Origin: Promethearchaeota archaeon
Lineage (GTDB): Archaea > Asgardarchaeota > Lokiarchaeia > Sigyniarchaeales > SOKP01
Reading direction: 5' to 3'
NCBI GenBank assembly: GCA_016840085.1
Contig: JAEOTA010000043.1
Coordinates: 1-64,000, forward strand
Length of the DNA stretch: 64,000 nucleotides
Under the pieces are notes generated by a model, which saw only the letters and a list, made by a program, of their open reading frames with translations, ran no database searches and was not told the DNA's origin. The first letter of the stretch is position 1; every line of letters starts with the position of its first letter. Positions 8,036 through 37,530 of this stretch are shown in pieces. Both the position numbers and the translations under genes were made by a program.

Positions 8036-8765
8036 CTGTTTTTAGAAAATCTTCAGTAACTTTTACTGGTTTCCCCATTGTAGATTTTAAATACATAGAT
8101 TTGAAATTATTAAACTTATGTGGCATTTGATCTGCAATGAAATCAACAATTGTTTTCATATTTTCAAATAATTTATCAATTTCCATTGATTTTTTCCCTA
8201 ATTTTACAAAAATGATTGGTTGTTTTTTCATTTGAATACTAACCACCTTTTTGTATCTCTCAAAAGCAACCTTTAAATCATCTGGATTAGAGATGATTCC
8301 ATATCCAGAAGGAAATGGTTTAGGCATTTTCCCTAGAGGACCAAGAAATCTTGCTAAGTATCGTGCAACATCTCTCATCATTTTGTCTTCAACGATGAAA
8401 AAATCATATTTTTTAGCGAACTTTTTTTTCCTCTTCTTTTCTTCGTTATTTAATTTAATCAATCCATCAGAATCGAGTATATCAACACCTAATTTCTTAG
8501 CTTCAAGTAATATATCATCTGAAGCAATTATACATATATTAGGTTTATCTTTACCAATTATTTCATTAGTTAAAATAATTTCCTTATCAATTCTATTCTT
8601 GGGATCATTTAAATTAATGTCTTTTACATTAATAATAAGGTCGATTGATTCGTCAAACTTTCTTACTTTTTCTTTAAAGCCTTCTCGTTTAATTACTGAA
8701 AAATCTATTGCTGCATTTAATGATTTTTTTAATAATTTATCATCTACTTTCAGTTTACAATTCAC
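8025..8765 (-). CDS. rpl1: Ribosomal protein uL1
   Basis: RKFDESIDL, LGPLGKMP and LKSTMG motifs; operon position. Confidence 0.95.
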   Translation of the reverse strand: MNCKLKVDDKLLKKSLNAAIDFSVIKREGFKEKVRKFDESIDLIINVKDINLNDPKNRIDKEIILTNEIIGKDKPNICIIASDDILLEAKKLGVDILDSDGLIKLNNEEKKRKKKFAKKYDFFIVEDKMMRDVARYLARFLGPLGKMPKPFPSGYGIISNPDDLKVAFERYKKVVSIQMKKQPIIFVKLGKKSMEIDKLFENMKTIVDFIADQMPHKFNNFKSMYLKSTMGKPVKVTEDFLKTVEV

Positions 8766-9252
8766 CCTTTACTTTTTCATCATACTCTCCATTATTTATT
8801 CCTTTTTGGATAATCTTCGGGTCTTCTCCCTCTACAGTTAATCCAATAGATAAAGCAGTTCCAAGAACTGATTTTACCGCAGCTTTATAAGTATTTTCTA
8901 AAAATATATCCTTTTTAGCATCTACAACAGCAAGAATCTGATCAAGAGTTAAATTGCCAATCTTCTCATCAGAACATGCGGAACTCCCTTTTTCAACTCC
9001 CGCTTCTTTAAGTAATAAGGACGCAGTAGAAGGTGTTTCAATAAATATCTCAAATTGTTTAGTTTCTGGATCACATTCAATCCTTACAGGAACGGTTAAT
9101 CCCTTAAATACCATTGTTTGCTCATTTATCTCATCTACTACATCTTTAATATTAATTCCAGTAGGACCAACTGTTGGACCAATTGGAGGTCCACCGCTAG
9201 CGCTTCCTCCAGTCACTAATGCTTTTACGATAACTTTCCCTTTTTCACTCAT
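8755..9252 (-). CDS. rpl11: Ribosomal protein uL11
   Basis: GGSASGGPPIGP, GLTVPV and VLGTALSIG motifs. Confidence 0.97.
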   Translation of the reverse strand: MSEKGKVIVKALVTGGSASGGPPIGPTVGPTGINIKDVVDEINEQTMVFKGLTVPVRIECDPETKQFEIFIETPSTASLLLKEAGVEKGSSACSDEKIGNLTLDQILAVVDAKKDIFLENTYKAAVKSVLGTALSIGLTVEGEDPKIIQKGINNGEYDEKVKGEL

Positions 9253-36737: not shown

Positions 36738-36937
36738 TTAATCCTTTTTGAAAATATTACCACACCCGCCACACTTCACATTCTTAGCATATACCGGAGT
36801 ACCCTGCTTCAGCAGCATGCTTAAATAGCATTACTTATACTATAGTAAAGTACATTGCTTTTATCGGGCTCCTCATGAAGCTTACGTGGGTTCTCATTGC
36901 CACACTTAGGACATTTAACCCTTTTATACTCAGTCAC
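36738..36937 (-). CDS. 56-aa zinc-ribbon protein interrupted by a putative 29-nt intron (not in ORF track)
   Basis: AGGGG RBS and GTG start; removing 36808-36836 gives MTEYKRVKCPKCGNENPRKLHEEPDKSNVLYYSMQGTPVYAKNVKCGGCGNIFKKD. Confidence 0.8.
36808..36836 (-). other. Candidate bulge-helix-bulge/loop-type mRNA intron
   Basis: UAGU/GCUG 4-bp helix, AU^A and AA^G cut positions, intron hairpin AGUAAUGCU-AUUUA-AGCAUGCU. Confidence 0.7.
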
Positions 36938-36999
36938 TTTATTCCCCTTAACTCTAAAATAAGATTTTTACATATTTAGTGGGTTTTATAAATTTAAAT

Positions 37000-37530
37000 T
37001 TAGGTTTTTACTTGGGTTTTTATTATAATCTCTCTCACAATATCATTTATTTTCTTGTTAGTTGTGTCAATAATAATCTCTGCTGCTGCTTCGTAAGATG
37101 GATTTCGAAAATTTAATACTTTTTCAATTTCTATTTTGGGATCTTGTGTATTAATAACAGGTCTAGACTCTTTTCCATCCATCATTATTCTTTTATATAT
37201 TTCTTCTGGTGTCGATTTTAGAAGGACTATAATAAAATTCTCCTTCAAATTATCAATGTTAATTTTATTTAAAACAACTCCACCCCCACATGAAATAACG
37301 GTTCTTTTTAGCTTAGATGCTTTTATACATGCTAAATTTTCATATTCTCTAAATTTTTGTTCTCCTTCTTCCTTAAAAATTCTTGGAATGGATTTACCCG
37401 TTTCTTTAACTATAATTTCGTCAGTCTCAATAAATTTATAATCATTTCCAAGCTGTTTAACTATTGCTTTTCCAATAGTTGTTTTTCCTGTAGCCATAAA
37501 ACCTATAAGCGCAATAGAATCCTTACTCAT
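37000..37530 (-). CDS. aroK: Shikimate kinase (bacterial AroK type)
   Basis: IGFMATGKTT, GEQKFREYE, SCGGG and RP motifs. Confidence 0.93.
   Translation of the reverse strand: MSKDSIALIGFMATGKTTIGKAIVKQLGNDYKFIETDEIIVKETGKSIPRIFKEEGEQKFREYENLACIKASKLKRTVISCGGGVVLNKINIDNLKENFIIVLLKSTPEEIYKRIMMDGKESRPVINTQDPKIEIEKVLNFRNPSYEAAAEIIIDTTNKKINDIVREIIIKTQVKT

What the first reader, a model, noticed from the sequence alone, without database searches (positions are those of the whole stretch)
36738..36937. Candidate bulge-helix-bulge mRNA intron splitting a small zinc-ribbon gene
Seen: a minus-strand gene with RBS AGGGG and GTG start reads MTEYKRVKCPKCG...VLYYS and then hits TAA. The matching second knuckle (QGTPVYAKNVKCGGCG...) lies in another frame. 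Removing exactly 29 nt (36808-36836, AAGUAAUGCUAUUUAAGCAUGCUGCUGAA) joins AU+G into a Met codon and gives a 56-aa CxxC...CxxC protein. Independently, the RNA folds with a 4-bp central helix UAGU/GCUG, a 3-nt bulge AUA, an 8-bp intron hairpin whose loop region carries the premature stop, a second triplet AAG, and an exon-exon helix GUACUUU/AGGGUAC. Established: archaeal EndA cuts after the second nucleotide of each bulge, here AU^A and AA^G, which are precisely the frame-restoring positions. mRNA BHB introns are known mainly from crenarchaeal cbf5. The exon-side helix is not flush with the second bulge, so this is the relaxed BHL form. Inference: EndA/RtcB-type splicing of an Asgard mRNA could act as an on/off switch, conceptually like short frameshifting XBP1/HAC1-type introns.
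Basis: partly seen in the sequence, partly recalled or inferred. Interest (0 to 1): 0.92.

Follow-up and report, generated by a model that had tools for sequence, protein, structure and literature searches.

The report
tRNA-type mini-intron in Asgard zinc-ribbon gene
A 29-base insert shaped like the introns that archaea cut out of tRNAs splits a small protein gene in this Loki-type Asgard archaeon; it is one of at least 12 such inserts in the genome's protein genes, including ribosomal protein S3 and EF-2, so these cells very probably splice many mRNAs, although no spliced RNA has been seen yet.

Summary
Confirmed. The 29-nt insert (36808-36836, minus strand) sits at the same site and has the same length in 33 Promethearchaeia genomes of one genus. 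All 61 uninterrupted homologues read YSM-QG, and only the BHB-predicted cut gives this. The stems covary, and both exons are under purifying selection (pN/pS 0.14 and 0.17). A motif-free census found a BHB at 10 of 13 ORF-breaking inserts (0.3 expected) but at only 4 of 144 frame-preserving indels (7.8 expected). This genome has at least 12 such introns in 9 genes, including the only uS3 gene found and EF-2. Best reading (0.9): an EndA/RtcB-spliced mRNA intron of the relaxed HBh' type, like crenarchaeal cbf5 but part of a genome-wide set. The on/off-switch idea is unsupported. No RNA run was listed, and this assembly lacks the presumed catalytic EndA paralogue, which 51 of 54 genus genomes have. 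A lead not found in the scan's notes: two rare introns (a second one in this gene in G016, and one in this genome's cdhC) resemble this intron, hinting at copying. I found no paper on Asgard mRNA introns, but this scan noted this intron and the phenomenon before, on other DNA.

The parts
36944..36948 (-). Shine-Dalgarno-like AGGGG, 6 nt upstream of the start; relatives have a similar purine-rich motif and mostly ATG starts
36837..36937 (-). Exon 1 (33 codons + AT) of a 56-aa zinc-ribbon gene, first CxxC knuckle
   Evidence: pN/pS 0.14 across 33 intron-bearing alleles
36808..36836 (-). 29-nt frameshifting, stop-containing BHB-type (HBh') intron
   Evidence: same site and length in 33 genomes; covariation; only cut that gives YSM-QG
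36839..36842 (-). 5' strand of the 4-bp central helix (UAGU; CAGU in most relatives), in exon 1
   Evidence: 99% of cells paired with 36810-36813
36836..36838 (-). 5' 3-nt bulge AU^A, predicted cut between 36837 and 36836
36814..36835 (-). Intron hairpin (h'); 6 of 7 scored pairs show two-sided changes; holds the premature TAA (36821-36823) in this allele
36810..36813 (-). 3' strand of the central helix (GCUG), in the intron
36807..36809 (-). 3' bulge/loop triplet AA^G, predicted cut between 36808 and 36807; not closed flush by an exon helix
36799..36853 (-). Offset exon-exon helix (36847-36853 with 36799-36805); also possible in intron-less alleles, so not intron-specific evidence
36738..36807 (-). 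Exon 2 (G + 22 codons + TAA), second CxxC knuckle
   Evidence: pN/pS 0.17
37000..37530 (-). Shikimate kinase gene directly upstream; neighbour of the gene in all 11 loci checked, with and without the intron (orthology marker)

Best explanation
The 29 nt are a genuine intron in the mRNA of a small Promethearchaeia zinc-ribbon protein. The transcript folds so that the intron's GCUG pairs with the exon's (C/U)AGU to form a 4-bp helix, with a 3-nt bulge and the intron hairpin on one side and an internal loop on the other (relaxed HBh' motif). The two-subunit tRNA-splicing endonuclease EndA cuts after the second nucleotide of each bulge. RtcB joins AU and G into the Met codon, which restores the frame and the second CxxC. 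It is one of at least 12 roughly 30-nt introns in this genome's protein genes, all with the same geometry, which come and go in evolution. Shown by sequence comparison: the insert, its exact ends, its conserved structure, selection on both exons, and presence of RtcB and EndA genes in the genus. Inferred: cleavage by EndA, ligation by RtcB, and constitutive rather than regulated splicing.
For: The insert has the same site and exactly 29 nt in 33 genomes. 61 of 61 uninterrupted homologues read YSM, and only the BHB cut gives it. Covariation: 31 cells with two-sided change vs 8.6 shuffled; slid controls are at most 52% paired vs 96%. Exon pN/pS is 0.14 and 0.17, and the insert has no codon periodicity. 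Five further inserts at three other sites of the same gene in other genomes also end at BHB cuts and restore homologous residues. Motif-free census: strict BHB at 10 of 13 ORF-breaking inserts vs 0.32 expected, and 4 of 144 vs 7.8 for frame-preserving indels. The only uS3 gene found in G000 (two inserts) and the only uL11 gene in G006 are broken this way and are restored by BHB cuts. RtcB is present, and 44 of 54 genus genomes have two EndA paralogues. Asgard EndA is reported as (alpha-beta)2 with the L1 loop, the type that cleaves relaxed motifs (PMC5829648).
Against: No spliced read, circular intron or peptide has been seen. The G000 assembly holds only one EndA paralogue, which lacks the usual catalytic His, and the higher-scoring paralogue was not found there. 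The 3' bulge is not canonical: RNAalifold pairs two of its bases with exon 1. The 67-nt fold alone is unremarkable (z -0.79). The genomes are related, so the covariation counts overstate the number of independent events.
Confidence: 0.9

Rival explanations
1. The intron is spliced, but it is kept as a regulated on/off switch (XBP1/HAC1-like) that ties production of the zinc-ribbon protein to EndA/RtcB activity. This is not exclusive of the best explanation.
For: The intron is retained in 33 species with a non-canonical 3' site that could splice inefficiently. A negative-regulator role was proposed for the cbf5 intron (PMC2738675).
Against: It is absent from close relatives with near-identical exons. 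Several other introns occupy other sites of the same gene. The same kind of intron occurs in EF-2, uS3, uL11 and cdhC, with patchy presence on the AMP-phosphorylase tree.
Confidence: 0.12
2. The insert is bypassed at translation, by a programmed frameshift or a ribosome hop over the hairpin, and is not spliced.
For: The two frames overlap inside the insert in most alleles, and a hairpin is present.
Against: No single shift site fits all alleles: one allele stops at insert codon 3 in the exon-1 frame, while two stop at codon 7 in the exon-2 frame. The insert's translation is not conserved and has no codon periodicity. In-frame 30-nt inserts with varying stops in this gene, EF-2 and AMP phosphorylase cannot be rescued by a frameshift. 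The ends coincide with BHB cuts.
Confidence: 0.03
3. The insert is removed by another route: a different structure-specific nuclease/ligase, or precise DNA-level excision in part of the population.
For: Intron-less alleles with exact junctions exist. The presumed catalytic EndA is missing from this assembly.
Against: The geometry is that of EndA substrates in all 12 cases. 51 of 54 genus genomes carry the second EndA paralogue. Intron-less alleles belong to distinct species rather than being mixed within assemblies.
Confidence: 0.05
4. The gene is a pseudogene, or the insert is an assembly artefact.
For: Only that the ORF is broken in the DNA and the fold is weak on its own.
Against: 33 separately assembled genomes carry it. 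Exons have no other lesions and pN/pS is below 0.2 on both sides. Stem changes are compensatory. Essential single-copy genes carry the same kind of insert.
Confidence: 0.01

Closest known systems
cbf5 pre-mRNA intron of Desulfurococcales/Sulfolobales (Watanabe 2002; Yoshinari 2006; Yokobori 2009, PMC2738675)
   Same: Short intron in a protein-coding gene, relaxed BHB ends, cuts between the 2nd and 3rd bulge nucleotides, hetero-oligomeric EndA, lineage-specific gain and loss.
   Different: Other phylum and unrelated host gene. Here there are at least 12 introns in 9 genes of one genome, several per gene, and at least four sites in this one gene. cbf5 splicing is shown by cDNA; this one is not. 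As of PMC2738675 (2009) and PMC7714728 (2020), cbf5 was the only confirmed coding-region case.
Non-canonical (HBh'/BHL) archaeal tRNA introns, including the heavily interrupted Asgard tRNAs (bioRxiv 10.64898/2026.10.13.758758)
   Same: Same motif, size range and inferred enzymes; repeated gains; G000's tRNA genes also look intron-rich.
   Different: The host is an mRNA, so failure to splice truncates a protein. The preprint does not mention mRNA and finds almost no copying between tRNA genes, whereas two candidate copies of this intron are seen here.
Haloferax volcanii HVO_1309 5' UTR BHB intron (PMC7714728)
   Same: EndA substrate in an mRNA.
   Different: It lies outside the reading frame, whereas this intron splits a codon.
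XBP1/HAC1 unconventional splicing (own knowledge)
   Same: Short, frameshifting, non-spliceosomal intron; RtcB is the ligase in metazoans.
   Different: Cut by Ire1 in two hairpin loops under stress control, not by EndA at a BHB; no evidence of regulation here.

Membership tests
Archaeal BHB-type (EndA/RtcB) intron | 4-bp central helix between upstream exon and intron 3' end | tested here: met
   99.2% of cells paired in 33 alleles
Archaeal BHB-type (EndA/RtcB) intron | 3-nt bulge at the 5' junction closed flush by the intron helix h' | tested here: met
   6 of 7 h' pairs show two-sided changes
Strict hBHBh' motif | Second 3-nt bulge closed flush by an exon-exon helix | tested here: not met
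   The exon helix is offset by a 4x4 loop and RNAalifold pairs two bulge bases; the motif is the relaxed HBh'/BHL form described in PMC5829648
Archaeal BHB-type (EndA/RtcB) intron | Cuts after the 2nd nucleotide of each bulge coincide with the exon ends | tested here: met
   Only this cut gives YSM-QG; 61 of 61 intron-less homologues read YSM
Archaeal BHB-type (EndA/RtcB) intron | Host encodes an EndA able to cut relaxed motifs ((alpha-beta)2 with L1 loop) | tested here: inconclusive
   Two paralogues in 44 of 54 genus genomes; G000's assembly has only the one lacking the usual catalytic His; the L1 loop and the catalytic residues of the other paralogue were not inspected
Archaeal BHB-type (EndA/RtcB) intron | Host encodes the RtcB ligase | tested here: met
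   G000:C83, E 1e-166, open frame
Archaeal BHB-type (EndA/RtcB) intron | Spliced RNA, circular excised intron or in vitro cleavage demonstrated | not testable with these tools
   Needs an RNA run or an in vitro assay
cbf5 pre-mRNA intron | Located in cbf5 at the catalytic Asp codon in Desulfurococcales/Sulfolobales | tested here: not met
   The host is a 56-aa zinc-ribbon gene of Promethearchaeia; it works like the cbf5 intron but is not that intron
Group I/II or homing-endonuclease intron | Ribozyme core or intron-encoded ORF | tested here: not met
   29 nt; no Rfam match at E<=1
Programmed ribosomal frameshift | One conserved shift site with both frames open around it | tested here: not met
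   Stop positions in the two frames are incompatible across alleles
XBP1/HAC1-type regulated splicing | Signal-dependent cleavage that changes the spliced fraction | not testable with these tools
   Needs expression data across conditions

The most novel reading that the evidence does not exclude
These micro-introns are actively spreading through protein-coding genes of a Promethearchaeia family, and this intron is itself a donor. A 31-nt look-alike sits at a second CAGUAU^ site 20 nt downstream in one genome (G016). The cdhC intron, found only in G000 among 45 genomes with a match, is most similar to the G000-clade variant of this intron. That would be intron-to-mRNA transposition, for example by EndA/RtcB reverse splicing and fixation in DNA, in the prokaryotic lineage closest to eukaryotes.
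Probability: 0.4. Interest if true: 0.92.

Novelty: new variant of a known kind. Interest (0 to 1): 0.8.

Why it matters
The papers I could search confirm coding-region mRNA splicing in archaea only for cbf5. If the reading is right, a common family of Loki-type Asgard archaea must splice many mRNAs, including those of uS3, EF-2, acetyl-CoA synthase beta and a ubiquitin E1-like enzyme, with the tRNA machinery. Intron-split protein genes would then be established, and turning over, in the closest prokaryotic relatives of eukaryotes without a spliceosome. In practice, such genes are invisible or called as pseudogenes or fragments in Asgard annotations; this 56-aa gene has no ORF call at 40 aa. 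The two candidate copies make the open question of how BHB introns arrive directly testable with population-level genomes and an in vitro reverse-splicing assay.

Tried and rejected
No RNA holder was listed for the locus, so expression and splicing could not be examined. Four DNA runs were laid: only the possible source run spans the whole stretch, and no joint skipping the 29 nt is listed; neither counts as evidence. Folding energy alone (z -0.79) and frame rescue alone (38 possible 29-nt deletions) were rejected as evidence. The exon-exon helix was rejected as intron-specific evidence because intron-less alleles keep it. An ab initio BHB plus ORF-rescue scan was noisy: of 218 short candidates only four held up by homology, and it missed the EF-2, uS3 and E1 introns, so I used a homology-based census. 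The second EndA paralogue was not found in G000 by tblastn, motif search or HMM at E<=10. No Pfam family above cut-off and only an unnamed Promethearchaeota Atlas cluster were found for the protein. No Rfam match. The sigma-70 promoter scan was at chance level and does not apply to archaea. Covariance model R1 was built but not used, because it is tied to this gene's exons. BLAST of 11 of the G000 introns against the genome found no multi-copy family. Eight literature searches found no paper on Asgard mRNA introns; the library lacks most subscription papers.

Full report
1. Observation. The minus strand has AGGGG at 36944-36948 and GTG at 36937. The first frame carries a CPKC knuckle and stops at TAA 36821-36823; the CGGC knuckle lies in another frame. 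Removing 36808-36836 gives a 56-aa protein with an AT|G junction. The region folds as described. Taken alone, neither fact is strong. The fold has z -0.79, and 38 different 29-nt deletions open the frame. No ORF of 40 aa or more is listed here, so ordinary annotation misses the gene.

2. Organism and orthologues. Named records of the homologues are almost all Promethearchaeota/Promethearchaeia MAGs; Loki_b32 and the bin108 chromosome carry the split form. The gene follows shikimate kinase in all 11 loci checked, with and without the insert. The product is a zinc ribbon with no Pfam family above cut-off. Its nearest Atlas cluster is an unnamed Promethearchaeota family, and the genome has several paralogous domains. 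Its function is unknown; a small Zn-binding adaptor is my guess from the fold class only.

3. The insert is a conserved structured element with exact ends. It occurs at the same site in 33 genomes of the genus and is always 29 nt. Close relatives lack it and read straight through the junction. All 61 uninterrupted homologues read YSM before QG, and of the 29-nt deletions around the site only the one at 36836/36808 gives that. This is the cut after the second base of each bulge. In the 33-row alignment 96.3% of cells pair, 8 of 18 pairs have two-sided changes, and there are 31 such cells against 8.6 shuffled. Slid controls pair at most 52%. Six of seven scored intron-stem pairs covary, and the central helix is 99% paired. 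The rows are related, so these are not independent events. RNAalifold recovers the central helix, the 5' bulge and the hairpin, but pairs two bases of the 3' triplet with exon 1. The motif is therefore the relaxed HBh'/BHL form. The exon-exon helix is also possible in intron-less alleles and is not counted as evidence.

4. The gene is alive. Spliced in silico, all 33 alleles give intact proteins, with pN/pS 0.14 (exon 1) and 0.17 (exon 2). Exon variation is concentrated at third codon positions (0.29 vs 0.05-0.06), while the insert shows no periodicity (0.16, 0.12, 0.15). Every allele has a stop in the exon-1 frame within the insert, at differing positions. One allele stops at insert codon 3 in the exon-1 frame and two stop at codon 7 in the exon-2 frame, so no single frameshift site serves all.

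5. The same gene has other introns elsewhere. G016 has a second, 31-nt insert after PVY and G017 a second, 30-nt insert within YAK^S. Two genomes of another genus (30 nt) and G092 (32 nt) have one at YK^. Each has a 3-4-bp helix, 3-nt bulges and a hairpin, and cutting by the BHB rule restores the residues of the homologues (read from the sequences).

6. It is a genome-wide phenomenon. An ab initio scan gave three more candidates: cdhC, AMP phosphorylase and a small GTPase. All three are clean 30-nt insertions relative to homologues. The AMP phosphorylase intron is in 21 of 30 loci, and a 30-nt stop-containing insert in that stretch occurs in seven genera of the family and was not seen in the three other families searched. 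A motif-free census then compared G000 with 2.4 Mb of G006 at protein level. Of 13 ORF-breaking insertions, 10 have a strict 4-bp helix plus flush stem at the homology-defined ends (0.32 expected at random nearby positions). Of 144 frame-preserving indels, 4 do (7.8 expected). In total I count 12 introns of 29-38 nt in 9 genes of G000: this gene, cdhC, AMP phosphorylase, the GTPase, EF-2 (2), an acyl-CoA ligase, an E1-like enzyme, uS3 (2) and an 88-aa conserved gene (2). This is a lower bound. uS3 has a single hit in G000 and is restored to full length by the two cuts. The only uL11 gene of G006 is split by a 28-nt BHB insert. Since these proteins are essential (established knowledge), the inserts must be removed or bypassed in the living cell.

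7. Machinery. RtcB is intact in G000. 44 of 54 genus genomes have two EndA paralogues and 51 have the higher-scoring one. G000's assembly shows only the paralogue in which the usual catalytic His is replaced (residue assignment from my knowledge of M. jannaschii EndA). Its nearest relative G024 has both, so an assembly gap is the likely reason, but this is not shown. Asgard EndA is reported as (alpha-beta)2 with the L1 loop, the type that removes relaxed introns (PMC5829648).

8. Mechanism. Shown: ends, structure, selection and enzyme genes in the genus. Inferred: EndA cleavage at both bulges and RtcB ligation to make the Met codon (0.9). A regulatory switch is possible but unsupported (0.12). 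Presence is patchy. On a midpoint-rooted AMP phosphorylase tree, intron-bearing and intron-less alleles of that gene are sisters with full support, and three genomes lacking the focal intron nest among genomes that have it. That suggests turnover with precise loss, but it is one gene with no outgroup, so the order of events is not established.

9. A lead on how the introns arrive. Most G000 introns are unrelated in sequence. Two are not. The second intron of G016 matches its own first intron at 23 of 31 columns and sits behind the same CAGUAU; none of 20,000 pair-preserving shuffles scored as high. The cdhC intron, seen only in G000 among 45 genomes with a match, matches the focal intron at 22 of 30 columns. 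It scores best against four alleles including G000's own and G024's (13, against 3 or less for 23 of 33 alleles), with family-wise p about 0.008. Caveats: the test was post hoc; the G016 case could be a local DNA event; and the cdhC target helix differs, so a straight copy would at first pair only two of four central bases. Direction is inferred from distribution only. A 2026 preprint found almost no such copying among Asgard tRNA introns and calls the arrival route open (10.64898/2026.10.13.758758).

10. Known and new. The closest case is the crenarchaeal cbf5 intron. PMC2738675 says no other archaeal pre-mRNA splicing was confirmed, though some was predicted. PMC7714728 adds only a 5' UTR intron in Haloferax. 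Eight searches found no paper on Asgard mRNA introns. The single intron is a new member of the EndA-intron class; many introns across core protein genes is a new variant. This scan has noted the same intron in other genomes, and the phenomenon in at least 75 genomes. Those are unchecked AI notes and I do not count them as support. My census found the EF-2, uS3, E1 and 88-aa cases before I read those notes. A word search of the notes for intron copying returned nothing.

11. Verdict. The feature is real and very probably spliced, but unproven at RNA level; the switch idea is not supported. Interest 0.8.

Noticed in passing
G000:C85:142161-142191 and 142249-142278 (+): The only uS3 gene found carries a 31-nt frameshifting and a 30-nt stop-containing BHB insert; both cuts restore a full-length protein.
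   Followed up: yes
G000:C4:16302 and 16173 (-): EF-2 has two 30-nt BHB inserts, the first in the G1 motif; G006's EF-2 lacks both.
   Followed up: yes
L083 (G000:C4:202483-202512, +): cdhC has a 30-nt BHB intron found only in G000 and resembling the focal intron; G093 (L095) and G018 (L108) have different introns at other cdhC sites.
   Followed up: yes
L084 (G000:C9:138211-138240, -): The AMP phosphorylase intron splits DKHS-T-GG; it is in 21 of 30 loci, with a similar insert in seven genera of the family and patchy presence on the tree.
   Followed up: yes
L085 (G000:C24:30582-30611, +) and L151: A small GTPase has a 30-nt intron in switch I in G000; G024 has a different one at another site of the same gene.
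   Followed up: yes
G000:C6:14028 (-), C78:56854 (-), C51:58189 and 58260 (+): BHB inserts in an acyl-CoA ligase, in the GxGxxG of an E1-like enzyme, and two in an 88-aa conserved gene.
   Followed up: partly
window 8755-9252 (-): uL11 is intact here, but its orthologue in G006 (C1:1129379) is split by a 28-nt BHB insert. G006 also has 30-nt BHB inserts at 1410049 and 1621977.
   Followed up: partly
L016 (G016): A second 31-nt intron behind a second CAGUAU, similar in sequence to the first intron of the same gene: a candidate local copy.
   Followed up: yes
L089 (G000:C79:3618-4226): The only EndA gene in this assembly lacks the usual catalytic His; the other paralogue, present in 51 of 54 genus genomes, was not found.
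   Followed up: partly
G000 genome: ARAGORN finds only 13 tRNA genes, most with odd intron calls, consistent with multiply interrupted tRNAs.
   Followed up: no
G000 contigs C36, C76, C70, C75, C4, C9, C20, C85, C18, C50: Many paralogues of the CxxC...CxxC domain; in relatives, similar domains lie in open frames of about 335 aa.
   Followed up: no
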